This document shows, in pieces, positions 3,239 through 58,939 of a stretch of 64,000 nucleotides of DNA. The stretch's first letter is position 1, and each line of letters starts with the position of its first letter. Origin of the DNA: a virus; the IMG/VR virus record IMGVR_UViG_3300050166_000025, positions 64,001 through 128,000 of that record. One strand, given 5' to 3'. A program made the position numbers and the translations under genes. The notes under the pieces were generated by a model that made no database searches, was not told the origin of the DNA, and saw only the letters and a program-made list of their open reading frames with translations.

Positions 3239-3437
3239 CTATCATACTCAGAATTTCACCAGAAGGCGCTTCATACTTGCCGGCCTCTATTTTAGTTAAG
3301 CCTGCTTTCCATAGAAGCTGTTCCATTTCAGTACCTAACAGTTTACCTGATAAGTGCATCTTGTTTAGTAATTCATATAGTTGAAAGTACTCTCCGGTGG
3401 TTAATTCGGGTTGATTGGATTGATATTGATTTTCCAT
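3228..3437 (-). CDS. hypothetical protein
   Basis: 69 aa; preceded by AATATATA-GAAT-ATG. Confidence 0.65.
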   Translation of the reverse strand: MENQYQSNQPELTTGEYFQLYELLNKMHLSGKLLGTEMEQLLWKAGLTKIEAGKYEAPSGEILSMIVKQ

Positions 3438-3538
3438 ATTCTATATATTTGTAAATAATTTAAAAATAATCTGAGAATTGTGAAACTATCCCCTAAAGCT
3501 GCTATATAAGATTTGTTCTTCCGGGTTTGAAGGTCTAC

Positions 3539-4195
3539 TTAAAGGGAGGAGATATACTGGGCTAAGAAGTAAGCATCGACTAGATCATCAAAGGGTTTAG
3601 GAACCTTAGTGCCCACTTCAAGTCCTTTCGCAAACTTCCACACTTCTGAGCTTTCAAGACTCTTGTCTCCAAGACTGTTTGCAGTGAAAGCTTCCCATAA
3701 ATCCTTCTTGTTCATTCTACCACCGCCCGCAAACTTTTTAATTGAGGTAGGAGCAACTGTTACAATGTTAAACGGTTTAGCTAAAGGGCTGAAAGCTCTG
3801 TAAAGATTCAACTTAAAGATTGCTGCTCCCGCGGCCAGGTCGATTAGATTATTGGTACCACCTCCGCCGGAACCATAGGAAACACCTTCAAATGCAACAA
3901 TAGTGGGCTTAAAGGGCTCAATTAGTTCAGAGTCCCTAATGATAGAGATAATTTCATCCGAAGAGGTCATATATCTAGTTAGTTTCGACATCTCTTTTTC
4001 AGAGAACTCTTTTGAGGTTTCAAAGCCCGGTTGATATTGAAGTGTAATGTCTTTGCAAGCGGACAGTTCCTCCTGAATTCTAACCTCGGCTTTCGTGCCA
4101 CCTGCTTTAAGGTATGAGATAAACTTAGAGCCCTCTTCTGATTTTAAGAAGATGCCCGGGGAGTTAAGAGAAAAGTCAACAGCAATAATTTGCAT
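3539..4195 (-). CDS. RuvC-like Holliday junction resolvase / RNase H-fold nuclease
   Basis: IIAVDFSLNSPG, VAFEG, PTSIKKFAG...K, DDLVDAY; start moved to ATG 4195 to remove overlap. Confidence 0.75.
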   Translation of the reverse strand: MQIIAVDFSLNSPGIFLKSEEGSKFISYLKAGGTKAEVRIQEELSACKDITLQYQPGFETSKEFSEKEMSKLTRYMTSSDEIISIIRDSELIEPFKPTIVAFEGVSYGSGGGGTNNLIDLAAGAAIFKLNLYRAFSPLAKPFNIVTVAPTSIKKFAGGGRMNKKDLWEAFTANSLGDKSLESSEVWKFAKGLEVGTKVPKPFDDLVDAYFLAQYISSL

Positions 4196-4196
4196 A

Positions 4197-4565
4197 TTAG
4201 ATTCTTGTACCAAGTGATGAGCCAACTGCGGCGCCAACCAGTCTTGAAGTTAAAAGATCATAAAGAAGGCCAGATTGAACTCCTAAGGCTCTAGCCACTA
4301 CCTTACCAATAGTATTACCGAGAGCAAATCCAGTAAGACCACCTAGAAGAGAACCAAGAAGACCTTCATTAGTTAGTTCCTCGTTGAACTTTCCAATCTG
4401 AAGTACACCATTCTCATCTGAGTAATTTGTCATAAACTCGTCAATCGCACGACCTATCTTCTCTTCAAGCTCAGGAGTTAATTCCGATGTCAAGGATTCT
4501 TTTAACATGTCAAATTCATTGACTGTTACGTTCTGTTCTGCAAGATATTCGTTGAATGTTTTCAT
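4197..4565 (-). CDS. putative head-packaged protein with C-terminal glycine zipper
   Basis: N-terminus MKTFNEYLAE like T4 capsid-targeting sequence; GxxxG-rich hydrophobic C-terminus. Confidence 0.55.
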   Translation of the reverse strand: MKTFNEYLAEQNVTVNEFDMLKESLTSELTPELEEKIGRAIDEFMTNYSDENGVLQIGKFNEELTNEGLLGSLLGGLTGFALGNTIGKVVARALGVQSGLLYDLLTSRLVGAAVGSSLGTRI

Positions 4566-4575
4566 ACTCTATATA

Positions 4576-5127
4576 TTAGTCTATTTCAAGCTCTATATTA
4601 AATTTGTTATAATAGAAGTTAATATCGAACGTGTTAAACTCTGCTACGTTTTGACTCATGTTAAGCTCTAGATCAGAAATAGAATTCATAATAGGCTTTT
4701 CAAATACCACAGAAACAAGATGAATCCCTTCACCGTCTAATAACTGTAGTTTAATATCGTTTGTAAATGGAGTAGCAACCTCCTTTGAGTAATAATATAG
4801 AAGAGTGTCTTGCATAATCCAGTAATTTATGAATCCATCTAAAGATTGCATCGTAACTGAGAATTGGCGATCTATTAAATTTTGAATGGGTTGAGCACCT
4901 CTAAAATATCTAGTGGTACCATCGTTGTTATTTTGTGTAACTGGATCAAAGTTTATTCCGGGAATACTCACACCTTGAATAGAGTAATTAATAAAATCTA
5001 TAGGTTCTGTTATGATATTACCTGGCATTCTATTCAAATACTTCTTGTACTTGTCAGCCACTTCCTTAGGAATAAACGTCCTAGGAAATTGAAAGTTAAA
5101 CAGATTATTTCTACTATTTAATATCAT
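4576..5127 (-). CDS. tail tube-like / tail completion protein
   Basis: 183 aa, QGVSIPG...FSVTM...FDINFYY pattern of the gp19/gp3 tube fold; structural context. Confidence 0.5.
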   Translation of the reverse strand: MILNSRNNLFNFQFPRTFIPKEVADKYKKYLNRMPGNIITEPIDFINYSIQGVSIPGINFDPVTQNNNDGTTRYFRGAQPIQNLIDRQFSVTMQSLDGFINYWIMQDTLLYYYSKEVATPFTNDIKLQLLDGEGIHLVSVVFEKPIMNSISDLELNMSQNVAEFNTFDINFYYNKFNIELEID

Positions 5128-7169: not shown

Positions 7170-7184
7170 TCTAGGTTTTTAATT

Positions 7185-7970
7185 TTAAAATTGTAGAAAC
7201 GCAGGACTCCAATATAAACCAGCATTTATGTTAGGTCCATATTGAATAGTTTGTCCATTGATTAGAGTCATACCATAACCAACACCAAACCCAATAGACC
7301 ATCTTGCTTTCTTAGGAGTTTTTTCGTTTAATTTATTATTTATCAAGTTTATATTTTCAATATTTTCAAAATCTAATCCAGGATAAGTTGAACTCATTTT
7401 AATTTTCTTATAACCATCTTTCTCATCAATTGAAGCGTACAATTTAATTTCCTGTGATAGGTTGAAATCTGAATTTTGAACATTAAATTTGTCGCCACTT
7501 AAAGTAAATTTTACTGAGCCATCGAATCTTCTAGTGTTACCTTTTCCAAAGTCTTTAAAATCATTAAACTTAAATACAGTAGTCGTATCGTTTAATTTTG
7601 AAACTATTGTCTCTGTTTTAATCTCATCTTTTATCTTAACTTGCGCCTTCAATAGTGCATTAGTAGACTTTAGAGATTTAGAAAGTTGTAAAGCATCAGA
7701 ATACTCATTTGCTAAATCTTTATATTTACCCATAAATTCATTTATGTCATATACGAAACTTCTCTTCTCTGCAATCAAGCCTACGTTTTCGCTCTTATAC
7801 TTTTTAATAGTATCGTTTGCTGCAAGCAGATTATTATAATGAATACCTGCATCAGCCTTAGTTTTTACTAACTCGGCTTTTAATTCAGAAATAGCATTAC
7901 ACTGTCTTAAAAAAAGAAGAGCAAATATTGCTAACAATAAAAAGATAATTAAGTTTCTATTTAAGTTCAT
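7185..7970 (-). CDS. membrane protein, spanin-like
   Basis: N-terminal TM helix, coiled coil, C-terminal amphipathic beta-hairpin WSIGFGVGYG...GLYWSPAFLQF. Confidence 0.5.
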   Translation of the reverse strand: MNLNRNLIIFLLLAIFALLFLRQCNAISELKAELVKTKADAGIHYNNLLAANDTIKKYKSENVGLIAEKRSFVYDINEFMGKYKDLANEYSDALQLSKSLKSTNALLKAQVKIKDEIKTETIVSKLNDTTTVFKFNDFKDFGKGNTRRFDGSVKFTLSGDKFNVQNSDFNLSQEIKLYASIDEKDGYKKIKMSSTYPGLDFENIENINLINNKLNEKTPKKARWSIGFGVGYGMTLINGQTIQYGPNINAGLYWSPAFLQF

Positions 7971-7972
7971 AA

Positions 7973-12676: not shown

Positions 12677-12677
12677 T

Positions 12678-17402: not shown

Positions 17403-17470
17403 TAGAAATTCCTATATGTATTGTTAGTAATATATATCACACTCACTTACAATAGGAATTTCTTAGAACA

Positions 17471-28575: not shown

Positions 28576-28929
28576 TTATATTACAACCTGAACCTGATAT
28601 CTTGAATCAATCACGACATCGATAAAAATTGCATCTCTTTGCGTTCCACTTAAAAACTCAACTGTTGTTTTTACATCATACTTTTGAGCTAATGGAACAA
28701 ACAATAACATCTGTGTGTTTATTTCGGACTCTATCTGACCAGCGTTATATGTAAATTCATACACTAAATCTTCAAGACTGCATCCAAATTCTGGATTTCC
28801 CAGCACATCTCCTTTATTTGTAAATAATACAAGTTCAATCTGTGCTAGCAGCTGTGCTATTTCACTTTCAGATTGTAATTTGTAAGGATCAAAATTAGGG
28901 TCGTCTACTGATTTAATATAAAATTCCAT
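28576..28929 (-). CDS. baseplate gp25-like protein
   Basis: LFTNKGDVLGNPEFGCSLEDLVYE. Confidence 0.85.
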   Translation of the reverse strand: MEFYIKSVDDPNFDPYKLQSESEIAQLLAQIELVLFTNKGDVLGNPEFGCSLEDLVYEFTYNAGQIESEINTQMLLFVPLAQKYDVKTTVEFLSGTQRDAIFIDVVIDSRYQVQVVI

Positions 28930-28944
28930 GGTTTATATATTTTC

Positions 28945-31105: not shown

Positions 31106-31155
31106 GCGATATATACAGTGAATATTTTCTATTTCACTATATATATCACTGATAA

Positions 31156-32370
31156 TTATATTAACTTCAAGAATACTTTTCTTGTAGCCTCATCAATTCT
31201 AGTAACGGTTACCGTAATTGGATCTCCTTTCTTAATAGAAGCAATATCAATTCCTTCTAATTCTGATACGTGTAATAAGCCAACAATACCCTCTTCGATT
31301 GTTACAAAGATACCATAATCTTTAGTGGCTTTAACGCTACCAACTACTTGGCTAGGAACTGTGTATCTTTCTGCGATACCAATCCATGGGTTTGCTTGTT
31401 CTACTATCTCGACCTGTGTAAGGGTGATCTTCTTTTCAGAGATAATTTCTTTAACCTTAAAGGTAATCTCTTCTCCAGGTTGAATCTGGCCAGCTGACAG
31501 ACGCTTTGATAACTCAACGTTTAAGTCATTCACGTGGATCATACCAGTTAAACATCCGTTAAATTCAACGAAGACACCGAACTTAGCTGTTCCTGTAACA
31601 GTTCCAGTATATTCTGTCTCTGCAGGAGCTTCATTTAATTTATCAATCGCGACAGGAATCATCGCCTGTAAATATTTTCTATGTGATACTACGATAGTTC
31701 CTTTATCAGCTGAGAAACTAACTGGCACAACATACATTTCTGTTCCGATGATAGATTCAAAGTTAGATAGTTTGTTAGCTCCTGCTAATGAACCTGGCAT
31801 AAAACAGTCAATGCCTTGTACATTAACAATGTATCCGCCACCTGGAATCATTTGAGTTACTGTTCCAGTATATGCAGTTCTACCTGATTCAATTGAATTA
31901 CGTAATTCTGCAAAAATAGCTTGTCTAGTTCCTTCGGTTACTGAACCTAAAATAAATCCTTTAGTGATCTTGTCTCCTAAGACTTTAATCATAAACTCTT
32001 TACCAGGTTGAATTAATTTTCTAAATTGAGGTGATTCTTTTTCTAAATCAATATACGCTAATTCTCTATAACCAATATCGATCATAGCCCATTTTTCAGA
32101 GATAGAGTAAACTGTTCCAGTATGATGTTCTCCGATTAAAACTTGATTTAATAGAGAATTAGAAGAAACTCCCATAATCATGTTATAGAGCTCTTGTGCA
32201 TAGTTACTGCGAGAGTAAACTTTAACGCCTTCTGAAACTTTGATTTTTTTGTTGCCTTGTCTTAAAGCAGAAGGGCAATCTGCTGAATACTGATCCCAGT
32301 CAAAATTAGGATCGGGTTGTCTCCAAGAAATTTGTGAACTTGTTGACTGATTTTTTTTTGTTTCTAACAT
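31156..32370 (-). CDS. rpsA: ribosomal protein bS1 homologue (four S1 domains)
   Basis: Repeated S1 motifs (IDIGYR, GYIVNVQGIDCFMPGS, FGVFVEFNGCLTGMIHVNDL, YGIFVTIEEGIVGLLHVSEL); N-terminal FDWDQY resembles Bacteroidota bS1. Confidence 0.8.
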   Translation of the reverse strand: MLETKKNQSTSSQISWRQPDPNFDWDQYSADCPSALRQGNKKIKVSEGVKVYSRSNYAQELYNMIMGVSSNSLLNQVLIGEHHTGTVYSISEKWAMIDIGYRELAYIDLEKESPQFRKLIQPGKEFMIKVLGDKITKGFILGSVTEGTRQAIFAELRNSIESGRTAYTGTVTQMIPGGGYIVNVQGIDCFMPGSLAGANKLSNFESIIGTEMYVVPVSFSADKGTIVVSHRKYLQAMIPVAIDKLNEAPAETEYTGTVTGTAKFGVFVEFNGCLTGMIHVNDLNVELSKRLSAGQIQPGEEITFKVKEIISEKKITLTQVEIVEQANPWIGIAERYTVPSQVVGSVKATKDYGIFVTIEEGIVGLLHVSELEGIDIASIKKGDPITVTVTRIDEATRKVFLKLI

Positions 32371-32411: not shown

Positions 32412-33962
32412 TTACGAGACTGGTGCTTTGAAAATCAAAAGGTTCCATTTTGTAGCCGGTTTTGAAGCATACGCAAAATAGGTTCTGTAGTTGGTAATGT
32501 GATCAGTGATCCATTTGTGACCATCGGAGCCTGCGTGTAAGCCACCAGTAAACATCTGAGTGTGGCCATATATCTTGCTAACTTCAGTAGAAGGTCCGTC
32601 TACTGCCCAGTAAGATACAACATCTCCTATGTCAAAATCCCGACTCAATAGAGTTTGAATTTCTGATTTGCTCATTTCTTTTCCGCCTGCAACTAGATCA
32701 TATCCAAGATTTTTTAAGGCTTGAATATATCCAATACCATTTGCGTTTCCACCGGCATTGAAATTAGCACCTTTAGTCATCTGTTTACCGGATAAACCTT
32801 GAACGTAATTTCTGGCTGTGTTATAAGTATATCTTGCGCATTTACCGTTTGATCCACCAAAGGCATGAGTAGCTTGTACTGCTTTTATGATAGAATTTTT
32901 AGCTTTATCGCTAGCATTTCCGTTGTAGAATGAAGTAGAATTATCGTTACCGTTGAATTTTCCACCATCATCATCCAATGTAGCTTCTGCATCAGTAGTA
33001 ACTCCAGTATAAGAAACCGGGGCATCATTTTCATTCAATATCAATTCGTCTGTTGTACTATAAGTAGAAGAAGATTGAGTAGAATTAGCGTCTGCAATAA
33101 CTGAACCAGCGCTTTTATTACTTGATGTTGGTTTTTCAGGCTGACCTTTTTGAGGATTTGTGCTAGGTGCAACTGGAGATGATGTCTTACTTGAATTATT
33201 TGAGGCATTTTCGCTTACAGTGGTAGGCGCTCCACCACTAGATTGGCCACTAGATGAGCTGGTACTTGGCGCAGCTTTAGATTTAAACTGTTTAATAGAT
33301 TCAAGTTTTGACTTATCGGAGCTAATATTAATTACCTCGGGTGGTATTGGAGCTGACGTAGGAGATCCATTTGGGGTTAAATGCTTGTGTGTAATAACAG
33401 ATTGCATGAATCTATCTAATATCTTTCTTAGCGTTTCTCCCTTTACGGCCGGCTCACTCTCATCATTCCAGTTAGATGCGATAAAGATGTTATCTGAATT
33501 TAAGAAAATTTTACCGTCATGAAAACGTAACATTGGCGCGGAAGACTTGCCTTCTCCCGTAGTCAATACTAAGCCGTCTTCTTTACTCACATAGAATCTA
33601 AAATTTCTAAGTGCGTCATACGCTAGTGCAATGGTATTTTCGGGTTCAGTAGAACCAGCCAATACTTCATTTTTTAATTCTAAATTTTGATTAATTTGAC
33701 AAGAGTATAGGGGTAGGTATATGTTACCGTTGTCGAATGTGATAGCAACTATGTCTCCTTTTCTAGGCACAAAATGCTGACCTGCTCCCATTGAATTAGC
33801 AGGACTAGCCCATGGAATAGCCTCTATGGGTAATATATCGAATTTTCCAAAGACGTTGACCTTACATCTGCCATTATTAAGAGGGTCTTTGTTATCAACC
33901 ACTTGACCAATCCAATGAGTGTCTCTGATATTGTCAGAACCTAATTCGTATTCAGTTGCCAT
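32412..33962 (-). CDS. baseplate spike (gp5/VgrG-like OB fold) with C-terminal Cys-His peptidoglycan amidase
   Basis: GQVVDNKDPLNNGRCKV...PWA...VPRKGDIV; THKH apex motif; S/T linker; GKCARY...GDVV...YGHTQM. Confidence 0.75.
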   Translation of the reverse strand: MATEYELGSDNIRDTHWIGQVVDNKDPLNNGRCKVNVFGKFDILPIEAIPWASPANSMGAGQHFVPRKGDIVAITFDNGNIYLPLYSCQINQNLELKNEVLAGSTEPENTIALAYDALRNFRFYVSKEDGLVLTTGEGKSSAPMLRFHDGKIFLNSDNIFIASNWNDESEPAVKGETLRKILDRFMQSVITHKHLTPNGSPTSAPIPPEVINISSDKSKLESIKQFKSKAAPSTSSSSGQSSGGAPTTVSENASNNSSKTSSPVAPSTNPQKGQPEKPTSSNKSAGSVIADANSTQSSSTYSTTDELILNENDAPVSYTGVTTDAEATLDDDGGKFNGNDNSTSFYNGNASDKAKNSIIKAVQATHAFGGSNGKCARYTYNTARNYVQGLSGKQMTKGANFNAGGNANGIGYIQALKNLGYDLVAGGKEMSKSEIQTLLSRDFDIGDVVSYWAVDGPSTEVSKIYGHTQMFTGGLHAGSDGHKWITDHITNYRTYFAYASKPATKWNLLIFKAPVS

Positions 33963-33965
33963 GTT

Positions 33966-35138
33966 TTATTTATAAACATTTCCTAGACCATTGATTCCGC
34001 CTCTCTGTAAAGCTTCTATAATTTTATCTCCGGGATTGGCTCCGTACACGTTTCCCAAAATAGCCTCTTCTATTCCTTTCTGGGTAATCTTAGTTGCTTC
34101 ATCTAGTCCCCTAACTGCATTCATTATTACGTTTTCAGGGGTTGGAATTCTATCGTTGATGGCGCCGGTAACTGCTCCTAATATTTCTTGCTTTTTTGAT
34201 TCAGAGAAATTTTTCAATGATGTTGAAGCCTGATCCGCTATTCCATTCAATCTTGACTGCAATCCAGATGCGGGTACTTCTACTTCAACAGTTGGAATAT
34301 TTCTTTCAGTTATTTTATCAGGTACTTGTGTAATGACACCGTTTAAATATACGCCATTTACCTCTTGCATTTTTTCATACTTTATTACGATTTCTTGCTT
34401 AGCATGTTCAGGCGAAGTTGCAGATAAATCAGATATGGCCATACTTCCAGAAGACATATCGAATTCACAAAAGTCGAGTCTAAATAGGATCTGTGGGATA
34501 TTTTTAGCTGCTATGTCAACGTTTATATTTTCATCTTTTTCATAAGATTGATCATTAAAGTTGGGATTATTTACGTATGAGCCAATGTCAATATTTCTAA
34601 TTTCGCTGACATAAACATACATTGAAAACTTTCTAAGATTTGCAGGTATAATGTAAGACCATTTTTCTTCATCAAACACAGCTTTCTTATATAGAGACAT
34701 TAATCCAGTGATTGCTAGATTAATTGATTCTAAACATTCGATCGTTAATTTAGCTTCATCTCCTCCCCAATATGGTCTATTCGGATCATATTGCTGTAAT
34801 CTATCTAAACCTTTTAAAGATTGCCAATACCATGGCATCTCTTTGTTAATTTTCATTAGCGCTGATTTAAAGTCTTTAAGATTCTGTAATCTAAGCGCAT
34901 ATTTTTCAGGAGCGCTAGCAGTATTCTTTAATTTTTCTAAAAATCTTTCTGCTGCGCCAGCTAGTAGTGGAGAAGAATCCCTGGAATCAGTCTGCATCTC
35001 GCTTTCAACGAACATAAATCCAAACGTTAAATACGTAGGATCCTGATATGGCAATTTAATATTACCACCTAAAGAGCCTTTGGTATAAAGACCAGATTTT
35101 CTAAAATCGTTCCAACCTGCAGAATTATTTATTGCCAT
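33966..35138 (-). CDS. tail tube-like baseplate protein
   Basis: 390 aa, tube-fold-like pattern, hub context. Confidence 0.45.
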   Translation of the reverse strand: MAINNSAGWNDFRKSGLYTKGSLGGNIKLPYQDPTYLTFGFMFVESEMQTDSRDSSPLLAGAAERFLEKLKNTASAPEKYALRLQNLKDFKSALMKINKEMPWYWQSLKGLDRLQQYDPNRPYWGGDEAKLTIECLESINLAITGLMSLYKKAVFDEEKWSYIIPANLRKFSMYVYVSEIRNIDIGSYVNNPNFNDQSYEKDENINVDIAAKNIPQILFRLDFCEFDMSSGSMAISDLSATSPEHAKQEIVIKYEKMQEVNGVYLNGVITQVPDKITERNIPTVEVEVPASGLQSRLNGIADQASTSLKNFSESKKQEILGAVTGAINDRIPTPENVIMNAVRGLDEATKITQKGIEEAILGNVYGANPGDKIIEALQRGGINGLGNVYK

Positions 35139-35158
35139 ACTGTATATATTAACTTAAA

Positions 35159-39182: not shown

Positions 39183-39235
39183 CAAATATAATTATGTTTA
39201 AGCAGAATGATTCTATCTAAACATATATATCAATG

Positions 39236-43300: not shown

Positions 43301-43344
43301 AATTATTTATTATTTTAATATGTTAGTAATTCTATATATCTAAT

Positions 43345-43743
43345 TTATTTGGATTTAGATTTTAAAATAAAAGATTCAAACGTCATTACAAATCTCTCGT
43401 TAGTCTCTTCTTTTTTAATCTGGTCCATAGTTTTCATAGCCCAATCAACTCCTTCATCTCCACCCCAAATTAACCAGGCCACATAGCCTCTGTCTTTCCA
43501 TGGAGTGTCTTTAAATTTAGGATCGATTGTTGAATTTTTTCTGTGTCTGTTAAATTGCGCCATTCTTGACACAACATCATAGGATAAGGCTTCTCCCTTT
43601 GCAAGTTGATTTGCTCGTTGCCAGCCTACTGGTGTTCCTGCGTCTACCTCTTCTCTGCCATATTTGTCTCTCCATTCAAGAGCCTTCTTAGCATTTTCGG
43701 TTGCCGCTTTAGGATAATCTGAAAATTTATCTGATTTATTCAT
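43345..43743 (-). CDS. conserved phage hypothetical protein
   Basis: DYPKAATENAKKAL...GTPVGWQRANQLA...VAWLIWGG; C-terminal TFESF. Confidence 0.65.
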   Translation of the reverse strand: MNKSDKFSDYPKAATENAKKALEWRDKYGREEVDAGTPVGWQRANQLAKGEALSYDVVSRMAQFNRHRKNSTIDPKFKDTPWKDRGYVAWLIWGGDEGVDWAMKTMDQIKKEETNERFVMTFESFILKSKSK

Positions 43744-43746
43744 AGC

Positions 43747-44481
43747 TTATATATTCAATAAAAAATCGATAGCGTTTGATAGCAGACCTCTCTCCTCAGT
43801 CGTCTTTTCAATGTGAGGACTCATCGCAATGATATTACCTTTGCCGTACGATGAAAAAACACCGGCTATCTTGCCAATAGAATAATTTTCGCCTGGTAAT
43901 TGCATAGGAACACCCTCTTTAAATTTTAATATGACGTTTATATTCTTATCTAATGATTCTCCTATTGGACCGCCATGATAATCTAATGTAACGCTATTCC
44001 TTGAAGTAGAAAAAATATCTTTTCCCGTCGGCGTTATTTCAAATTCTACTAAAACTTTGTCATCAGTCACTCTGTGCATTGGCATATATGCAGGTTCTGG
44101 CAGATTTGCGTTAGAACTTTTAACGTTAATCATTTTTAAGGACCAGTCATGTCCATAAGATATTAAGTGAAAGCCTGCGCAAACTGCTAATAGTTTGCCA
44201 CCAGATTTAACCCATTCCTTTAACTCTATCGTGCTCTGTTCTTTCATACCGAGTCTTTCCTGAAATGAATCTCCGCCCGGGATAATTAATAGGTCAAGTT
44301 TCTCAAAGTTTTTAAGTTCAAAAGAATCTGAATCTAATTTTACAGGTTCAACCCCTAAATATGTTTCAAAGAAATCATCCCACGCCGAAATAGTAGAGTC
44401 TACTACACCGTTATCATGGTATAAGCCTATTTTCAATTTTGAGTTGGCATTGAATTCCTCGAAAAGTTTAATCTTTTTCAT
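43747..44481 (-). CDS. class I glutamine amidotransferase-like (BPL_N-type) protein
   Basis: LLIIPGG, nucleophile elbow AVCAG, SPHIE; starts MKKIKLFEEF. Confidence 0.75.
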   Translation of the reverse strand: MKKIKLFEEFNANSKLKIGLYHDNGVVDSTISAWDDFFETYLGVEPVKLDSDSFELKNFEKLDLLIIPGGDSFQERLGMKEQSTIELKEWVKSGGKLLAVCAGFHLISYGHDWSLKMINVKSSNANLPEPAYMPMHRVTDDKVLVEFEITPTGKDIFSTSRNSVTLDYHGGPIGESLDKNINVILKFKEGVPMQLPGENYSIGKIAGVFSSYGKGNIIAMSPHIEKTTEERGLLSNAIDFLLNI

Positions 44482-44495
44482 TACTTTATATATTG

Positions 44496-44528
44496 AAAAA
44501 AGAAAAGGACCTTAAAAAGGTCCTCTCT
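44496..44528 (-). terminator. intrinsic terminator
   Basis: AGGACCTT..AAGGTCCT stem followed by T-rich tract on minus strand. Confidence 0.75.
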
Positions 44529-48332: not shown

Positions 48333-48400
48333 AGGTAAATATAAACAAAAAACCCGAGACTAAAAAATCTCGGGTCATTTATTTTCAAAAAAAGTTTAAT
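48333..48400 (-). repeat. duplicated terminator-plus-early-promoter cassette, copy 1
   Basis: Near-identical to 54839-54905; hairpin ACCCGAGA..TCTCGGGT plus T-tract, then TATATTTACCT. Confidence 0.9.
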
Positions 48401-50230: not shown

Positions 50231-50365
50231 GAAAAAGATATATGTTTGTGGTTACTCTATATATCTTTTAAAAAATAAAAAATTAAAGGGATGCCGACAT
50301 TGTGCAATTGAATAACCACAAACAATATTCACGAAAATTGTCGAAAATCCCTTTAATTTATATCT

Positions 50366-51371: not shown

Positions 51372-51481
51372 GTTGAATTTTCAACAGTTTATATATTTTA
51401 ACCAGTAATGAATCGGTGTGGTTTGGACAATTTTAATAATGTAATATATTTTAGGATGTGAGCCCTGTATCACCGAAGTGT

Positions 51482-51667
51482 TTATTGATTGGTATTCTTC
51501 TGTTGCTTATATTCAGCTTTTTGTTTTTGTAATCGCTTCATCGCACTCTTTTTCTTGAACTCTTTTTTCTCTTGTAAGGCTTGCATCTGCTTGATTTTGA
51601 TAGTTTTACGCTTAAACTCCTTTAGAGCCTTCTCAATGTTGCCGTCCTTTACATTAATAATAATCAT
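51482..51667 (-). CDS. rpsU: ribosomal protein bS21
   Basis: MIIINVKDGNIEKALKEFKRK...F.KKS..KR...KAEY, 61 aa, basic. Confidence 0.9.
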   Translation of the reverse strand: MIIINVKDGNIEKALKEFKRKTIKIKQMQALQEKKEFKKKSAMKRLQKQKAEYKQQKNTNQ

Positions 51668-51918: not shown

Positions 51919-52730
51919 TTTTCAAGTTGCTTTATTCTATTTATCAACTCAAGTTGATCGGCATTTATACCCGCAAAACTCGTAAGTAATTTTATTAAGA
52001 TGGCTCCAGCTTCATTAGTGCCCATGATAGGCAAGCCTTTACCGGCTAACCTGAGAACTTTTCCAGGATTTGAGCCCGGTGGAACGGTGAAGGCTAATTT
52101 ACCCGAAGGAGTGTCAATCTCTGTTTTAGTGCCAAGTATCATGTCATACCATCTCAGGCTCACCTCCATCCAAACATCATCGCCCTGAATAATCCAGTTC
52201 ACGTTGGGTAAGATAGTGACTTGCACTAATAGGTCACCTCTGGGAGCCTCTCTATTCCATGGGTTCCAGGAGCCTCTGCCTCTAACCCTTAAAGTCATGC
52301 CCTCCTTTGCTCCCTTTGGAATCTCCACTGGCACCTGATCGATTCTGGTGTTAAGAGTTGTCTTGAAGCCGTTATAGATGTGATGTATATCTAATTGAAC
52401 TGTGACACGCTGGTCCTGCCCTTTTCTCGAAGAGTCTGCCCGGTTGCCAAAGTGCACGTTGAAATCGTTGGACCAGTTTGTATTGCCCTGATTCCATTGC
52501 TGAAACAGGTTTTCCCAGTCCATTTCACCACCCTTTGACCTATCATACTGTCTACGCTTCTCCTCATCGCCAAGAGTTTGATAAGCCTCCTGTACGGTTT
52601 GAAAACGCTGCTTCGTATCAGTGTCCGGGTTCTTATCAGGATGCAATTCCTTAGCCAGTTTTCTGTACGCTTGTTTAATCTCCTCTTGACTAGCTGTCTC
52701 GCTTACTTTTAATGTTTGATAATAGCTCAT
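51915..52730 (-). CDS. dnaJ: DnaJ class B (CbpA-like) co-chaperone
   Basis: J-domain with HPD, no zinc finger, C-terminal substrate-binding domain (LRVRGRG, GDLLV, LRLAGKG). Confidence 0.9.
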   Translation of the reverse strand: MSYYQTLKVSETASQEEIKQAYRKLAKELHPDKNPDTDTKQRFQTVQEAYQTLGDEEKRRQYDRSKGGEMDWENLFQQWNQGNTNWSNDFNVHFGNRADSSRKGQDQRVTVQLDIHHIYNGFKTTLNTRIDQVPVEIPKGAKEGMTLRVRGRGSWNPWNREAPRGDLLVQVTILPNVNWIIQGDDVWMEVSLRWYDMILGTKTEIDTPSGKLAFTVPPGSNPGKVLRLAGKGLPIMGTNEAGAILIKLLTSFAGINADQLELINRIKQLEN

Positions 52731-52866
52731 CCTTGCGAGTTTTAATAGCCTCCTTAATTTTCTCTACTCCGCCTGTCAATAAGTCTGCCTTCTGTTGACG
52801 CTCCATTGAGTCAGCAATTCGTTTTAATTGTTTTGCGATTTCGGCTAGTGATTTTGAATCATCCAT
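52690..52866 (-). CDS. small coiled-coil hypothetical protein (58 aa, below ORF cutoff)
   Basis: MDDSKSLAEIAKQLKRIADSMERQQK...KRDS*; AATATATA upstream; overlaps dnaJ start. Confidence 0.55.
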   Translation of the reverse strand: MDDSKSLAEIAKQLKRIADSMERQQKADLLTGGVEKIKEAIKTRKDELLSNIKSKRDS

Positions 52867-52921
52867 AATAAGATATTATTTTAATCTATTCTATATATTT
52901 TTCACATTTTGTTTATAGATG

Positions 52922-53744: not shown

Positions 53745-53791
53745 TGTATTTAAGTTTATTTTCTCTGGATTATTCCATTAACTAATATACT

Positions 53792-53833: not shown

Positions 53834-53836
53834 CTG

Positions 53837-54571: not shown

Positions 54572-54822
54572 TATTTTTCTTCTTTAGTGATATCGAAAAT
54601 TGAAATTGGGTAGAACATTTCTGGCTTACCCATTCGGTCTGCCATTTGCTGATCTAGCTTAACGCTAAACTTATACCATTTATACCCATATTGTTTTGTC
54701 AAGTCCTTTAACTCCTCTACCAGGACTCCGGTTTTGGTCATAAACCCAGCGTGTAAGAATTGATAGGTCTTACCAACCTTTGGATTTGGGACCGTGATAA
54801 CTTTGGTTTGCTTCTTTGACAT
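54571..54822 (-). CDS. hypothetical early protein
   Basis: True start ATG 54822 (MSKKQTK), downstream of the duplicated promoter cassette. Confidence 0.65.
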   Translation of the reverse strand: MSKKQTKVITVPNPKVGKTYQFLHAGFMTKTGVLVEELKDLTKQYGYKWYKFSVKLDQQMADRMGKPEMFYPISIFDITKEEK

Positions 54823-54838
54823 ATTGCTGTTGTTTATA

Positions 54839-54905
54839 AGGTAAATATAACTAAAAAACCCGAGACTAAAAAATCTCGGGTCATTTATTTTCAAAAAAAT
54901 TTAAT
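54839..54905 (-). repeat. duplicated terminator-plus-early-promoter cassette, copy 2
   Basis: Near-identical to 48333-48400. Confidence 0.9.
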
Positions 54906-55142
54906 TTATTTTATGGAGTGTAAGGGATCGTTCCAGCTCCTGGCTCTTCTAACCTTTGCGTAAGACTCATAGTTAAGATGAACCGCCGCATATCCACCGG
55001 TTACCGAGTATGGAACATCGTGTTCTGAATACCAGTACGCCGGTGCCTCGCTGATTCTGTCATTTAGAAAGTCAAACAGCTCATCAATCTGCATGTGATG
55101 CACATAAATAGTTACAGTCATATTTGAGTTAGGGTATGCCAT
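54906..55142 (-). CDS. hypothetical protein
   Basis: 78 aa, coupled to ATP-grasp gene. Confidence 0.65.
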   Translation of the reverse strand: MAYPNSNMTVTIYVHHMQIDELFDFLNDRISEAPAYWYSEHDVPYSVTGGYAAVHLNYESYAKVRRARSWNDPLHSIK

Positions 55143-56095
55143 TATTTTTTAACCTGCCAGTTAGGATTTTGTTTTTGATTCTGTTTAATATCTTGCTGTC
55201 TAAATTCTTGTAGGAGCTTAGAGGTCTCGTCGGATAGTTGTGTCTCGTACCAGTCCTCGTAAATTCTCTCATATACCAGAGCCATTACTCCGAATAGAGC
55301 ACCAGGCTCTGAATTAATCTCGAACACATAGACTTTATCGTCCTCTGTCTTTGCAATATCGATCGCATAGAAGTCCAGGTCCGAGTGGTAGTCTCCAAAG
55401 TATGCAATGCATTTTAAGAAATCATCCCCTGGGGTCTCTTCTCTTAAAATATAAGCGAAATTAGTCTCCTTGTCCTCGGCCTTCTTAGCAATATCCTTTG
55501 TCTCATCATCCATTGGCTTTCTCTCTGCCCATTGAATTACTTCACTTCTCCACACAAAGAACCTATGCTCCTCTTTAATCTTAATCTTTTCAGAAAAGGA
55601 TGAGAATTGAGACAGGTCTACGCTATCCATGCTCTCTGGTGTTTCAAATACTTTAATACCTAAACCGCTATGATTATTATCTGGTTTTGCAACCACCGGA
55701 AAGTTAAGGTCTTTAACTGCTTTAGGATCTAAGACCGTAGGAATAATAAAACCTGATTTAGCGTGAGCCTTGTAAAACTCAGCCTTCGAGCTAACCTTCT
55801 CTCTTGCTTGCAGTTTATTATAAACCTGATTGTCTCTGATAGCGCCAGCCTTGATCATTTTCTCAAGCGTCTTTCTATCGTAGTTTAAGACAGGAAGATC
55901 TTTCGGCACCGTAATAGGCTCATCTCCGCGGGTAATAATAGTCCAGTACTCATGAGTTGAATACTCTGGGCCCGTGATAAACGAGTCATCCAGATCAGCT
56001 CTACGAGTAATCATTACTTTCTGGAACTCTGATCTTACAAATGCTTCATTCACAAATTGGTCAAATGATAATATCTTAGTATTGAGTGCTCTCAT
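55142..56095 (-). CDS. ATP-grasp ligase (RimK-like)
   Basis: FPVVAKPDNNHSGLGI, EHRFFV, FYAIDI, VFEINSEPG; N-terminal SFDQFVNE. Confidence 0.8.
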   Translation of the reverse strand: MRALNTKILSFDQFVNEAFVRSEFQKVMITRRADLDDSFITGPEYSTHEYWTIITRGDEPITVPKDLPVLNYDRKTLEKMIKAGAIRDNQVYNKLQAREKVSSKAEFYKAHAKSGFIIPTVLDPKAVKDLNFPVVAKPDNNHSGLGIKVFETPESMDSVDLSQFSSFSEKIKIKEEHRFFVWRSEVIQWAERKPMDDETKDIAKKAEDKETNFAYILREETPGDDFLKCIAYFGDYHSDLDFYAIDIAKTEDDKVYVFEINSEPGALFGVMALVYERIYEDWYETQLSDETSKLLQEFRQQDIKQNQKQNPNWQVKK

Positions 56096-56130
56096 AGTCT
56101 ATATATTAAAAAATAAAATACCTTATCTCT

Positions 56131-58035
56131 TTAGGAGTTTAATTGTATTTTTTTAATTGTATTTTTCAATTCTTCTATTTGCGCCTGTTGTTCTTTAATA
56201 GCCTCAACTAAAACTGCAACCATATTTTGATATTTAACAGACTTATTGCCGCTCTCATCAGTTACAACCAATTCAGGTATGTTTAATTCCAATTCTTGTG
56301 CAATAAATCCAATGTTATTTTTAGTGCCAGTATCTATTCTATCATAGACCACACCTCTTGATTTTAATATTTTATCTAAAGAACTTTCAATTGGTTTTAT
56401 GTTTTCTTTTACTCTAGCATCTGAAAAAGCAGTAATATCGCCAGAAGCATAAACTTCACCAAATGAAACTTTACCTTGAGCAGAACTCCACACGTCATTA
56501 AAAGTAGATGTAGTAGGAGACACTGAAGCACCATATATAGAATATGTGCTTGTTCTTAGTTGTGGGCTAATTCCATAGTTACAATACATATAATAGATTC
56601 CGCCGCCTCTTACCCACACTACTTCATCAGATGAGTTTGACATTTGCGTGATACCACCAATGGGCGACATTCCAGATACGAATCTATAGTTGTATGATTC
56701 AATAAATCTTATATTATCATTTGTTCCCCATCCGTTACCATTTGCAAACCATATTAATTTAACTGAAAAACCGGCCGGGTGAGATGACCAAGATGGAACA
56801 TTTGAATTCAAGGCAACTCTGATCGATAATTTATATAAAGTATTAGTTCCTAAACCAATTGTAACTGGATAATAAGTATTTACGTCTAATCCTGTAGTGT
56901 TAATAGTATATGAATATTCTATATCTCCATTTACACCGGCTGCTCCATTAGCTCCACTTGAACCTGAGCTTCCCGATGTTCCGTTTAAACCGCTTGAACC
57001 CGAGCTTCCTGAACTACCAGAATTACCAGATGAACCTGAACTACCAGAATTACCAGATGAACCTGAAGTGCCAGATGTTCCTGTTAAACCCGATGAACCA
57101 CTAAATCCTGAAGAACCAGAAGTTCCTGATGAACCTGATGAGCCAGAAGAACCAGATGTACCTGAAGTTCCTGATGAACCACTTGAGCCGGATGTACCAG
57201 ATGTTCCTGTTGTACCAGAAGTACCAGAAGTTCCTGATGAACCACTTGAGCCTGAAGTTCCTGATGAACCAGAAGAACCATTAGTTCCTGAAGAACCTGA
57301 TGTTCCTGCAGTACCATTAGTTCCTGATGAACCGCTTGAACCAGAAGTCCCAGATGTGCCTGTTGTTCCAGAAGTACCTGATGAACCGCTTGAACCAGAA
57401 GTCCCAGATGTGCCTGTTGTTCCAGAAGTACCTGATGAACCGCTTGAACCTGAAGTTCCTGCTGTACCTGATGAGCCAGATGAACCTGGTGTACCACTTG
57501 AACCTGATGTTCCAGAAGTACCTGTTGTACCCGATGTTCCAGAAGAACCATTGGTTCCGCTTGAACCAGAAGTCCCAGATATGCCTGATGTTCCAGTAGT
57601 TCCTGAAGAACCTGAAGTCCCAGATATGCCTGATGTTCCAGTAGTTCCTGAAGAACCTGAAGTTCCGCCTGTACCACTTGATCCAGAAGTTCCTGTTATA
57701 CCTGAAGTCCCATCTGTACCTGAAAAGCCCGATGAACCGGAAGTTCCGGAAGTACCATGCGTACCATGCTCGCCTGTAGTTCCTGAAGAACCTGAAGTAC
57801 CATCAGTACCGCTTGTTCCTGTTAAGCCAGAGCTACCAGATGTACCGCTTGAGCCAGAAGCACCTATTATTCCATCAATACCAGACGTTCCACTGGTACC
57901 TGAACTGCCATTAGCTCCAGAAATAGCAGCTTTATTTTTTAAATTATCTAATTCGGCTTTAAGTCCATCTATTTGATTTATACTAACTCTTGGCATAACT
58001 CGGGATATATTTGTTTCTTCTATATATTTCCGCAT
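56131..58035 (-). CDS. fibre protein with Gly-Ser/Thr triplet repeat and C-terminal S74 intramolecular chaperone
   Basis: About 330 aa of G-T-S/G-S-S; AFSDARVKENI...GFIAQE...LVEAIKEQQ. Confidence 0.85.
   Translation of the reverse strand: MRKYIEETNISRVMPRVSINQIDGLKAELDNLKNKAAISGANGSSGTSGTSGIDGIIGASGSSGTSGSSGLTGTSGTDGTSGSSGTTGEHGTHGTSGTSGSSGFSGTDGTSGITGTSGSSGTGGTSGSSGTTGTSGISGTSGSSGTTGTSGISGTSGSSGTNGSSGTSGTTGTSGTSGSSGTPGSSGSSGTAGTSGSSGSSGTSGTTGTSGTSGSSGSSGTSGTTGTSGTSGSSGSSGTNGTAGTSGSSGTNGSSGSSGTSGSSGSSGTSGTSGTTGTSGTSGSSGSSGTSGTSGSSGSSGSSGTSGSSGFSGSSGLTGTSGTSGSSGNSGSSGSSGNSGSSGSSGSSGLNGTSGSSGSSGANGAAGVNGDIEYSYTINTTGLDVNTYYPVTIGLGTNTLYKLSIRVALNSNVPSWSSHPAGFSVKLIWFANGNGWGTNDNIRFIESYNYRFVSGMSPIGGITQMSNSSDEVVWVRGGGIYYMYCNYGISPQLRTSTYSIYGASVSPTTSTFNDVWSSAQGKVSFGEVYASGDITAFSDARVKENIKPIESSLDKILKSRGVVYDRIDTGTKNNIGFIAQELELNIPELVVTDESGNKSVKYQNMVAVLVEAIKEQQAQIEELKNTIKKIQLNS
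56925..57920 (-). repeat. 9-bp-period coding repeat (G-S/T-S/T)
   Basis: cctgaagtt/cctgatgaa/ccgcttgaa units; exact 54-bp tandem at 57323-57430. Confidence 0.9.
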
Positions 58036-58060
58036 TTGTACTCAATAAAATATATAACCT

Positions 58061-58939
58061 ATGACAAAACGAGCGATATGGGTTCTGGAAAATGTGGATA
58101 AAAATCCGGCTTTTTATAGTAGCGTGAATACATTAATGCTCATGTCGAGTGTCATTAATTGGAAGAGATGGAATAATACGGCTACTGTTTTATATGTTGA
58201 CAAGTTGACGCATAACCACTTACGCGACCTAGACCTATTATCTCACTGGGATCATGTTAATGTTACTCTTCTAGAGCAGCCGACTACAATTGATAAGGTT
58301 GCGTTCTGGAGTTCTTCAAAACTACGTGTCCTATTACAACAGGAAGAGCCAGTAATCATGGTCGACTATGACTTTATTACCTTTACTAATTTAACTGATC
58401 CTTCGCCAGCTTCAAACTTTGTCTACTCGCATGATGAGGATGGAGATTTTGCATACCCTGGAGCAGCGGATCAATTTATCAAATCATGTAAATGGTCTAT
58501 ACCCGATTATTTAAAGTGGTCTATTAATAATGACGCCATTAACGTATCTTACTTATGCTTTAACGATATTAATTTTCAGAAAGAGTATGCAACGCATAGC
58601 CTAAACTCTATGGAAGAATTGTCGAGCTTAAAGGCTCCGAAAGGAAATTATGTTTGTTTCGCAGAGCAAAAGATATTGAAGCAACTTGCTCTACACAAAG
58701 AGATTGAGCATACACCTCTAATTAAGAACAGGTTTCATGCAGTGAAAGGTGTTTGGCATGAAGACCAGTTTATAGAAACAGGGCTCTGGAGTAAAGATGA
58801 AATGCATACTAAATTTATTCATTATGGACAAACCAAGCATGCTATACAAAAAGATGGAATTGAATTTAGATTTCTATGCAATAGCGTAAAGTCTAAAATC
58901 AATTCCACCACACTAGATAGAATTATTGCTATTCAGTAA
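58061..58939 (+). CDS. putative GT-A fold glycosyltransferase
   Basis: FWSSSKL...VIMVDYDFI (DxD), AINVSYL, FAEQKIL, FIHYG; only credible plus-strand gene; AATATATA-ACCT-ATG. Confidence 0.6.
   Translation: MTKRAIWVLENVDKNPAFYSSVNTLMLMSSVINWKRWNNTATVLYVDKLTHNHLRDLDLLSHWDHVNVTLLEQPTTIDKVAFWSSSKLRVLLQQEEPVIMVDYDFITFTNLTDPSPASNFVYSHDEDGDFAYPGAADQFIKSCKWSIPDYLKWSINNDAINVSYLCFNDINFQKEYATHSLNSMEELSSLKAPKGNYVCFAEQKILKQLALHKEIEHTPLIKNRFHAVKGVWHEDQFIETGLWSKDEMHTKFIHYGQTKHAIQKDGIEFRFLCNSVKSKINSTTLDRIIAIQ

What the first reader, a model, noticed from the sequence alone, without database searches (positions are those of the whole stretch)
3437..58063. Putative late motif AATATATA sits exactly 4 nt before ATG: leaderless late mRNAs in a phage with its own bS1 and bS21
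Seen: AATATATA-N4-ATG precedes seven genes: 3437 (GAAT), 4565 (GAGT), 28929 (AACC), 35138 (CAGT), 43743 (AGCT), 56095 (GACT) and the plus-strand gene 58061 (ACCT). At 44481 the spacer is 5 nt. The motif flips with gene orientation. RATATATA with longer leaders precedes 17402, 31105, 39182, 43300, 50230, 51371 and 52866. Known: the T4 late promoter is a lone -10 box (TATAAATA) with the start site about 5-6 nt downstream, and leaderless translation does not need SD pairing and is sensitive to S1 status. Inference: many late mRNAs begin at the AUG, and the phage bS1/bS21 may retune ribosomes to favour them over host mRNA. Alternative: the motif is an RNA enhancer read by phage bS1.
Basis: partly seen in the sequence, partly recalled or inferred. 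Interest (0 to 1): 0.82.

Follow-up and report, generated by a model that had tools for sequence, protein, structure and literature searches.

The report
Late promoter box abutting start codons
In this T4-related phage of Bacteroidota the late-gene promoter box (A/G)ATATATA sits exactly 4-5 bases before the ATG of about eleven genes, here and in many related phages, so these messages most likely start at or next to the start codon (leaderless); a link to the phage's own ribosomal proteins is untested.

Summary
AATATATA-N4-ATG occurs 7 times in the window (0.16 expected).

ATATATA is the most enriched word upstream of genes. Its distance to the ATG is bimodal: a spike at 4-5 nt, a near-empty zone at 6-17, and a broad mode at 18-34.

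The box is the clade's equivalent of T4's TATAAATA:
- A gp55-like late sigma is encoded here and in four relatives.
- The box precedes sheath, fibre, portal, protease and capsid genes.
- Metabolic genes instead carry host-type Bacteroidota promoters.

In 80 related viral contigs and one complete 256-kb relative the 4-5 nt spike recurs, at orthologous genes only 27-47% identical, with ATAAATA swapping in.

Flavobacterial RNA polymerase starts 4-5 nt after its -7 box, which places +1 on the A of ATG. These sites also show pyrimidine at -1 and lack the usual A at -3.

No RNA data could be obtained, so "leaderless" remains an inference (about 0.7). The bS1/bS21 link is untested. The scan has noted similar patterns in other phage genomes. 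I rate it a new variant of a known kind (T4 late promoters; leaderless late mRNAs of Thermus phage phiYS40).

The parts
3435..3449 (-). Short-spacing late box: AATATATA-GAAT-ATG, start of the 69-aa gene 3228-3437
4563..4577 (-). Short-spacing late box: AATATATA-GAGT-ATG, start of the 122-aa gene 4197-4565. The stop codon of the upstream gene overlaps the box.
28927..28941 (-). Short-spacing late box: AATATATA-AACC-ATG, start of the 117-aa gp25-like baseplate gene 28576-28929. Orthologues in relatives have the box at d=4, 5, 8, 9 or 10.
33960..33974 (-).
35136..35150 (-). Short-spacing late box: AATATATA-CAGT-ATG, start of the conserved 390-aa gene 33966-35138. Its orthologues keep d=4-5 in 26 of 44 distinct contexts, and variant boxes sit at the same d=4 in most of the others.
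43741..43755 (-). Short-spacing late box: AATATATA-AGCT-ATG, start of the 132-aa gene 43345-43743. The box overlaps the stop codon of the upstream gene.
44479..44494 (-). Short-spacing late box with N5: AATATATA-AAGTA-ATG, start of the 244-aa amidotransferase-like gene 43747-44481
44503..44527 (-). Intrinsic terminator hairpin. Its T-run ends where the 44494 box begins, so upstream transcripts should stop just before this box.
56093..56107 (-). Short-spacing late box: AATATATA-GACT-ATG, start of the 317-aa ATP-grasp (RimK-like) gene 55142-56095
58049..58063 (+). Short-spacing late box in flipped orientation: AATATATA-ACCT-ATG, start of the lone plus-strand DUF6734 gene 58061-58939. The intergenic gap is only 25 nt.
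58021..58028 (-). Divergent partner box for the fibre gene. It lies downstream of the first ATG (58035) and 24 nt before the in-frame ATG at 57996, which is the likely late start.
17431..17438 (-). Long-spacing late box GATATATA, 28 nt before ATG 17402 (1574-aa gene)
31138..31147 (-). Long-spacing late box (overlapping ATATATATA), 32-34 nt before ATG 31105
39224..39231 (-). Long-spacing late box GATATATA, 41 nt before ATG 39182
43333..43340 (-). Long-spacing late box GATATATA, 32 nt before ATG 43300
50258..50265 (-). Long-spacing late box GATATATA, 27 nt before ATG 50230
51390..51397 (-). Long-spacing late box AATATATA, 18 nt before ATG 51371. This is the shortest leadered spacing in the contig.
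52892..52899 (-). Long-spacing late box AATATATA behind a terminator, 25 nt before the 58-aa ORF 52690-52866. It heads the unit that ends with bS21.
31156..32370 (-). Four-domain S1 homologue ('bS1'). It is conserved in 74 of 81 related loci.
51482..51667 (-). Phage bS21 gene

Best explanation
(A/G)ATA(T/A)ATA is the late promoter box of a clade of T4-related Bacteroidota phages. It is read by host RNA polymerase carrying the phage gp55-like sigma and needs no -35 element. Most late genes have the box 18-34 nt (up to about 110 nt) upstream and so get ordinary leaders. For about eleven genes in this contig the box ends 4 nt (sometimes 5) before the ATG. Transcription would then start on the A of the start codon or within 1-2 nt of it, giving leaderless late mRNAs that ribosomes load through the 5'-terminal AUG. 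Where the gene sits inside an operon, the same site lets a full promoter fit into a 10-20 nt intergenic gap and boosts that gene late in infection. Shown here: the motif, its bimodal spacing, its conservation, the gp55 homologue, and the split between late and early genes. Inferred: the exact 5' end and how these messages are translated.
For: (1) Statistics: 7 sites against 0.16 expected. ATATATA is the top upstream 7-mer, found before 31 genes against 1.5 expected. Spacing is bimodal with 8 sites at d=4, one at d=5, only one between 6 and 17, and about 19 at 18-34.

(2) Late promoter identity: a gp55-like sigma (phrog_234, E 1e-10) is found here and in 4 of 4 related records, and in none of 14 control bacteria. 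The box precedes sheath, fibre, TerS-like, portal, protease and capsid genes. Host-type TTG...TAtaTTTAC promoters precede PRPP synthetase, exonuclease, cytidylyltransferase and DksA-like genes. No -35 element is conserved.

(3) Conservation: orthologues of the 390-aa gene at 27-47% identity have the box at d=4 in 23 and d=5 in 3 of 44 distinct contexts. Most of the rest carry GATAAATA or similar at the same d=4, and one sub-lineage jumped to d=19. The spike recurs over 679 unique gene starts in relatives and in a complete 256-kb relative, where ATATATA has 8 sites at d=4 and none at d=8-18.

(4) Geometry: the flavobacterial sigma-A box lies at -12 to -5 (PMC9723704), and the -7 element lies 4-5 nt from the start site (PMC6847099). 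T4's box lies at -13 to -6 (PMC1524935). N4 or N5 therefore puts +1 on the A of ATG.

(5) Start-site signature: there is a pyrimidine at -1 in 37 of 44 d=4 sites against 226 of 574 other genes (P 6e-9). A at -3, the usual translation determinant, is depleted at 30% against 58%.

(6) Context: a terminator lies directly upstream of the 44494 box and of d=4 boxes in relatives. The lone plus-strand gene at 58061 has no other recognisable promoter.

(7) All these genes start with ATG. The first 45 nt are less structured than in other genes (P 6e-5); this is weak support because orthologues are not independent.

(8) The hosts can translate leaderless mRNAs: these are 5.5% of F. psychrophilum mRNAs (PMC9723704).
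Against: With strict T4 geometry (box at -13 to -6), N4 would put +1 on the T of ATG. Some orthologues have d=6-10, which implies 1-5 nt leaders whose translatability in Bacteroidota is unknown. Several short-spacing genes lie within operons and could be translated mainly from read-through polycistronic RNA. The gp33 and gp45 partners were not identified. 'Late' timing rests on analogy with T4, not on expression data. The contig is estimated to be about 47% complete.
Confidence: 0.7

Rival explanations
1. Dual-use site. The box is a real internal late promoter, but protein comes mainly from longer read-through transcripts. In those transcripts the AU-rich, unstructured box serves as the translation initiation region. 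Transcripts that start at the box are then minor or non-productive.
For: Six of the eleven sites lie 3-20 nt after the stop codon of a co-directional gene. In this contig the base before ATATATA is A in 9 of 9 short-spacing sites against 8 of 26 long-spacing ones (P 3e-4). That places A at -12, which is a positive translation determinant in F. johnsoniae (PMC6847099). Relatives place a host-type promoter about 14 nt upstream of a box-N4-ATG, which would give a leadered early mRNA from the same site.
Against: This does not explain why the spacing is exactly 4-5 nt with an empty zone at 6-17. It does not explain the pyrimidine at -1 and depleted A at -3. It cannot account for the sites directly behind terminators or the lone plus-strand gene. 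The A-before-box bias is not seen in relatives.
Confidence: 0.17
2. RNA-level enhancer. AUAUAUA at -5 to -11 is a translation signal on the mRNA, for example bound by host or phage S1, and is unrelated to the promoter copies further upstream.
For: A fixed short distance from the start codon resembles a ribosome-binding element. S1 proteins prefer AU-rich single strands (established knowledge). An S1 homologue is conserved across the clade.
Against: The identical word, with the same ATAAATA variant, acts at 18-112 nt before virion genes in the same genomes. Only about 7% of genes carry it at short range. It has no complementarity to the anti-SD sequence (direct reading). The terminator-box-ATG arrangement leaves no room for another promoter. 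The spacing matches the box-to-start-site distance of flavobacterial polymerase (PMC6847099, PMC9723704).
Confidence: 0.08
3. Chance or compositional artefact of an AT-rich genome, or an artefact of gene calling.
For: The genome is 37% GC and intergenic regions are AT-rich.
Against: No shuffle gave more than 2 sites against 7 observed. The spike is specific to the coding strand, does not depend on annotation, and is replicated in independent genomes.
Confidence: 0.01

Closest known systems
Phage T4 late promoters (TATAAATA at -13 to -6, read by gp55 with gp33 and the gp45 clamp)
   Same: An 8-bp A/T-rich -10-like box with no -35 element. A gp55-family sigma is encoded. The box precedes virion genes. 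The exact T4 word and ATAAATA occur as variants at orthologous sites (PMC1524935).
   Different: The consensus is (A/G)ATATATA. The host is Bacteroidota, which does not use Shine-Dalgarno pairing. About a quarter of the boxes abut the ATG at 4-5 nt, an arrangement not described for T4, whose late mRNAs carry SD-containing leaders (own knowledge). gp33 and gp45 were not identified here.
Thermus phage phiYS40: leaderless middle and late mRNAs, with host IF2 up and IF3 down
   Same: A phage whose later genes are transcribed from -10-type promoters that give leaderless mRNAs, coupled to an idea of retuned translation (review PMC3594737, citing Sevostyanova 2007, PMC1885378).
   Different: The phage lineage and host phylum are unrelated. 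There the 5' ends were mapped; here they are inferred. There most middle and late genes are leaderless; here only a minority are. This phage carries bS21 and an S1 homologue rather than altering IF2 and IF3.
-10 box adjacent to ORFs in Deinococcus-Thermus (TANNNT a few bp before the start codon)
   Same: A -10-only promoter at a fixed short distance from the ORF gives leaderless mRNA, with a spacing requirement (PMC12340547).
   Different: That is a cellular housekeeping sigma in a different phylum. Here the system is a phage late sigma in hosts where leaderless mRNAs are rare: 5.5% (PMC9723704), and 3.7% of 5' UTRs shorter than 10 nt (PMC7366714).
bS21-encoding phages of freshwater Bacteroidota (Chen et al. 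2022, PMC9723584)
   Same: A phage bS21 gene near late or structural genes in predicted Bacteroidota phages. That paper proposes that bS21 favours phage transcripts late in infection.
   Different: That paper holds no mention of promoter, motif or leaderless. This phage also has an S1 homologue. No link between bS21 and leaderless starts was tested in either place.

Membership tests
T4-type (gp55-dependent) late promoter system | Phage-encoded gp55-family late sigma | tested here: met
   Genome 33879-34289 (L002:15879-16289:-) matches phrog_234 'late sigma transcription factor' at E 1e-10. It also has a weak sigma-70 family hit. The family is found in 5 of 5 clade records and 0 of 14 control genomes.
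T4-type (gp55-dependent) late promoter system | Single 8-bp A/T-rich -10-like box with no -35 element | tested here: met
   The aligned profiles show no conserved positions upstream of the box. The scan for sigma-70-type promoters is not enriched: 60 found against 59 expected.
T4-type (gp55-dependent) late promoter system | Box lies upstream of virion (late) genes and not early metabolic genes | tested here: met
   Sheath, fibre, TerS-like, capsid, portal and protease genes lie behind the box. PRPP synthetase, exonuclease, cytidylyltransferase and DksA-like genes lie behind host-type promoters.
T4-type (gp55-dependent) late promoter system | Co-activator gp33 and sliding clamp gp45 | tested here: inconclusive
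   The 248-aa gene upstream of the DNA polymerase is a positional clamp candidate, but it has no PHROG, Pfam or NCBIfam hit. gp33 was not searched for.
T4-type (gp55-dependent) late promoter system | Transcription starts about 6 nt after the box, late in infection | not testable with these tools
Leaderless mRNA | mRNA 5' end at, or within a few nt of, the start codon | not testable with these tools
   There are no 5'-end data. This is inferred only from the box-to-ATG spacing and the published 4-5 nt distance between the flavobacterial -7 box and the start site (PMC6847099, PMC9723704).
Leaderless mRNA | Promoter -10 box at a fixed short distance from the ORF, with intermediate leader lengths depleted | tested here: met
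   There is a spike at d=4-5 and a trough at 6-17 in this contig, in the complete relative and in the pooled relatives.
Leaderless mRNA | AUG start codon and no upstream translation signals | tested here: met
   All eleven sites use ATG. A at -3 is depleted (30% against 58%) and a pyrimidine at -1 is enriched (84% against 39%).
Shine-Dalgarno-like or S1-read translational enhancer | Element on the mRNA at a fixed distance before many start codons, and not found as a distant element | tested here: not met
   Only about 11 of 147 genes have it at short range. The same word lies 18-112 nt upstream of about 25 others. A terminator abuts the box at 44494.

The most novel reading that the evidence does not exclude
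The phage switches the mode of translation initiation late in infection. gp55-driven promoters placed on the start codon produce leaderless mRNAs, and the clade-wide phage bS21 and four-domain S1 homologue remodel the 30S platform of Bacteroidota ribosomes. Phage messages, whether leaderless or with phage-type AU-rich leaders, then outcompete host mRNAs. This would couple a specialised promoter architecture to phage-specialised ribosomes.
Probability: 0.12. Interest if true: 0.85.

Novelty: new variant of a known kind. Interest (0 to 1): 0.55.

Why it matters
Bacteroidota do not use Shine-Dalgarno pairing, and leaderless mRNAs are rare in them. A whole clade of their large T4-related phages appears to place a late promoter directly on the start codon of a defined, conserved set of genes.

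If 5'-end mapping confirms this, three things follow:
- T4-type late transcription would be known to drive leaderless expression.
- There would be a simple sequence rule for annotating gene starts and late promoters in this large, mostly uncultured phage group: the box followed by 4-5 nt and ATG.
- There would be a concrete set of natural templates for testing how Bacteroidota ribosomes start on leaderless mRNA, and whether phage bS21 and the S1 homologue change that choice.

The "all or nothing" leader lengths (0-1 nt, or at least about 14 nt) also suggest a minimum leader length for 30S loading in these hosts.

Tried and rejected
- **RNA evidence.** The first sequencing-run run was one base over the length limit.
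- **Close relatives among deposited phages.** Megablast of 20 kb of the window against the phage collection found nothing.
- **Single-protein searches.** Searches of viral contigs with the 244-aa protein (43747-44481) and the DUF6734 protein (58061-58939) found no relatives. The conservation of those two sites could therefore not be checked.
- **Co-variation of box variants.** A per-phage test of ATATATA against ATAAATA in the short- and long-spacing classes was uninformative, because both variants occur in both classes within single phages.
- **The related 462-kb huge phage LR756500.** It shares the ATATATA upstream word, but no d=4 site was seen in the 41 kb examined. The rest of that record was not scanned.
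- **Clamp candidate.** It gave no family match.
- **Literature.** Searches for leaderless late genes in Bacteroidota phages returned nothing relevant.
- **Explanations rejected.** Stop-codon overlap or translational coupling does not explain the spacing, because the upstream stop lies at varying positions relative to the box and four sites have no nearby upstream gene. A compositional artefact is excluded by the shuffles, the strand specificity and the replication.

Full report
**Setting.** The window is bases 64,001-128,000 of a single 151,111-bp viral contig with 36.7% GC. CheckV rates the contig about 47% complete. A simple ORF-based gene call gives 147 genes, 143 of them on the minus strand.

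The phage has a T4-type core:
- portal, prohead protease and major head protein;
- tail sheath and tail fibre;
- head-completion (gp4-like), DNA end protector (gp2-like) and sheath stabiliser.

By portal sequence its nearest deposited relatives are uncultured huge phages. LR756500 is 57% identical, followed by the 630-735 kb records and the Prevotella Lak phages. T4-like phages of proteobacteria and cyanobacteria lie further away. No close nucleotide relative is in the phage collection.

**The observation.** AATATATA-N4-ATG occurs 7 times in the window at exactly the stated places, against 0.16 expected. No shuffle of 100 gave more than 2. Over the whole contig:
- ATATATA is the most over-represented 7-mer in the 60 nt before genes. 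It precedes 31 genes where 1.5 are expected, and those copies account for more than half of all 56 in the contig.
- The distance from the end of ATATATA to the ATG is sharply bimodal. Eight sites lie at d=4 and one at d=5. Only one lies between 6 and 17. About nineteen lie at 18-34, with a few further out.
- Under a uniform 0-60 distribution, eight or more of 35 sites at one given distance has P = 8e-8.
- A count that ignores gene calls shows the same spike, on the coding strand only.

The variant ATAAATA also occurs at d=4 before window 33962, as the exact T4 word TATAAATA, and before genome 142491. It occurs at d=20-25 before five further genes, two of them behind T-runs. A box at 58021-58028 lies after the first ATG of the fibre gene but 24 nt before an in-frame ATG at 57996. 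"52866" is the start of a 58-aa ORF.

**What the motif is.** Three lines of evidence make it the late promoter box of this phage.

- *A late sigma is encoded.* The contig has a gp55-like late sigma (phrog_234, E 1e-10, plus a weak sigma-70 family hit). The same family is found in all four related records tested and in none of 14 control bacterial genomes.
- *Genes split by function.* The box precedes sheath, fibre, TerS-like, portal and protease genes, and the capsid gene at 112 nt. A different upstream signal precedes PRPP synthetase, an exonuclease, a cytidylyltransferase and a DksA-like gene. That signal is TTG...TTATATTTAC with leaders of about 20 nt, usually just after a terminator. It matches the Bacteroidota sigma-A "-7 box" TAnnTTTG (PMC9723704).
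- *The box stands alone.* Nothing is conserved upstream of it. In related phages T4-like (G/A)ATAAATA replaces ATATATA at orthologous positions.

T4's late promoter is TATAAATA at -13 to -6 and is read by gp55 (PMC1524935).

**Conservation of the tight spacing.** I aligned orthologues of the 390-aa protein that starts at 35138 (alignment A1). That alignment retrieved 80 viral contigs at 27-47% protein identity. Among 44 distinct upstream contexts of this gene:
- 23 have ATATATA at d=4 and 3 at d=5.
- Most of the rest have GATAAATA, AGATAGATA or similar at the same d=4.
- One sub-lineage has the box at d=19 instead.
- The four spacer bases vary freely.

Other gene families show the same behaviour:
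- The gp25-like 117-aa gene (window 28929) has d=4, 5, 8, 9 or 10.
- A gene of about 269 aa carries a host-type box followed by GATATATA- or GATAAATA-N4-ATG in eight contexts.
- The 516-aa gene (window 33962) has d=4-7.

Over 679 dereplicated gene starts in these contigs the pooled histogram has 44 sites at d=4 and 16 at d=5. There is a small tail to 10, a trough at 12-16, and a broad mode at 19-30.

A complete 256-kb relative with terminal repeats repeats the pattern on its own:
- ATATATA is again the top upstream word, at 49 against 2.8 expected.
- Counting the ATAAATA variant as well, eleven sites lie at d=4 and five at d=5.
- No ATATATA site lies between 8 and 18.
- Two of its d=4 boxes lie directly behind hairpins.

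**Why this points to leaderless mRNAs.**
- *Geometry.* In F. psychrophilum the sigma-A box occupies -12 to -5 (PMC9723704). In F. johnsoniae probable promoters have 4 or 5 nt between the -7 element and the start site (PMC6847099). A box ending 4 or 5 nt before ATG therefore puts +1 on the A. Strict T4 geometry would be one base off for N4 and exact for N5.
- *Sequence signature.* At d=4 sites the base before the ATG is a pyrimidine in 37 of 44 cases, against 226 of 574 for other genes (P 6e-9). That is the usual -1/+1 preference of RNA polymerase. A at -3, a positive translation determinant in F. johnsoniae (PMC6847099), drops from 58% to 30%. The spacer therefore looks like promoter DNA rather than a translation initiation region.
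- *Context.* At 44503-44527 a terminator hairpin and its T-run end exactly where the box begins. The plus-strand gene at 58061 stands alone among minus-strand genes, with a 25-nt gap that holds only this box.
- *The empty zone.* With a start about 5 nt after the box, the shortest leadered spacing (d=18-19) gives a leader of about 14 nt. That matches the upstream limit (-12 to -14) of the translation determinants reported for F. johnsoniae. Leaders seem to be either complete or absent. This last step is my inference.
- *Start codon and structure.* All these genes start with ATG. Their first 45 nt fold less stably than those of other genes (P 6e-5). This is weak support, because orthologues are not independent and GC content is slightly lower.
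- *Host capacity.* Hosts can translate such messages. Leaderless mRNAs are 5.5% of F. psychrophilum transcripts (PMC9723704). About 3.7% of Bacteroides 5' UTRs are shorter than 10 nt (PMC7366714).

**What is not shown.** I could not obtain RNA data. The exact 5' ends, the late timing and productive translation of such transcripts are therefore all inferred.

About half of the sites lie 3-20 nt behind the stop codon of a co-directional gene. Read-through polycistronic RNA could contribute there, or even dominate.

In this contig the base before ATATATA is A at 9 of 9 short-spacing sites, against 8 of 26 long-spacing sites (P 3e-4). That places A at -12, which might serve translation of read-through RNA. 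The bias is absent in relatives, so its meaning is unclear.

**The ribosomal proteins.**
- The bS21 gene is genuine: TIGR00030 scores above its cut-off.
- The "bS1" is a four-domain S1 protein colinear with the first two-thirds of rpsA, but it scores far below the curated cut-offs.
- That S1 gene is present 2-4 kb downstream of the 390-aa gene in 74 of 81 related loci at 48-73% identity. That is more conserved than its neighbours.
- bS21 is present in the one complete relative and in one incomplete one.

Both genes are therefore features of the clade and co-occur with the tight-spacing sites. Nothing here tests a functional link. From E. coli work (own knowledge), S1 and S21 are not needed for leaderless mRNAs. 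If that holds here, the phage copies would be expected to help leadered messages instead. The published bS21-phage study proposes selection for late phage transcripts but holds no mention of promoter, motif or leaderless.

**Comparison with what is known.**
- The mechanism resembles T4 late transcription in its promoter type.
- It resembles Thermus phage phiYS40 in giving leaderless later mRNAs (PMC3594737).
- The -10 box next to the ORF mirrors the rule found in Deinococcus-Thermus (PMC12340547).
- New here: the (A/G)ATATATA consensus, the use of a T4-type late promoter to make leaderless messages in a phylum where these are rare, and the conservation of this arrangement for particular genes across a large uncultured clade.
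- Full-text searches found no paper describing this.
- Earlier notes of this scan describe the same pattern in other phage genomes, with boxes TATTTAT, ATATTTAT and RATATATA.

**Verdict.** The late-promoter reading is well supported. The leaderless reading is probable (about 0.7) but unproven. The ribosomal-protein link is untested. I rate it a new variant of a known kind, of moderate interest.

Noticed in passing
window 31156-32370 (-); L008-L087: The four-domain S1 homologue is a core gene of the clade. It is present in 74 of 81 related loci at 48-73% identity, always 2-4 kb downstream of the 390-aa gene within the baseplate/structural block, and it is more conserved than its neighbours. Whether it is a ribosomal protein at all is open.
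   Followed up: partly
window 57994-58063: Two late boxes sit back to back, 20 nt apart on opposite strands. The first ATG of the fibre gene (58035) lies upstream of its own box. The late transcript would therefore start translation at the in-frame ATG 57996, which shortens the protein by 13 residues.
   Followed up: partly
window 48351-48376 and 54857-54882 (-): The same 26-nt terminator hairpin (GACCCGAGA...TCTCGGGTT) occurs twice, each time followed directly by a host-type promoter TT(T/A)GTT(T/A)TATTTAC. This looks like a repeated terminator-promoter cassette heading early units. Similar 'ctcgggtttttt' cassettes occur elsewhere in the contig.
   Followed up: no
L018:13615, L020:14582, L021:15528, L027:8120, L032:16260, L040:9380, L072:15575: In relatives a gene of about 269 aa (N-terminus like M-x-KFKTYGQFINES) has a host-type box TTTATATTTAC about 14 nt upstream of a late box-N4-ATG. 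The same gene would therefore get a leadered early mRNA and a leaderless late one.
   Followed up: no
window 31105-31147 (-): The leader behind the 31138-31147 box contains a long inverted repeat. It pairs the promoter-proximal bases with the bases just before the ATG (GATATATACAGTGAATA...TATTCACTATATATATC on the opposite strand). This may be a structured leader. Another first-stage note (e1-5828902) describes the same thing.
   Followed up: no
L016 (LR756500.1 208841-250346): The 462-kb uncultured huge phage whose portal is 57% identical also has ATATATA as its top upstream 7-mer (10 against 0.8 expected) and a gp55-like gene. The box is therefore shared well beyond the immediate clade. No d=4 site was seen in this 41-kb piece.
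   Followed up: partly
window 55142-56095 (-) and 43747-44481 (-): Two of the short-spacing genes encode enzymes rather than virion parts. One is an ATP-grasp protein with a weak match to ribosomal protein S6 glutaminyl transferase (RimK-like). The other is a class-I glutamine amidotransferase-like protein.
   Followed up: no
genome 62003-62953 (-), 1047 nt before the window: An HNH homing endonuclease gene carries its own AATATATA-GTAT-ATG start. This recalls the late-promoter-driven mobile endonuclease genes of T4.
   Followed up: no
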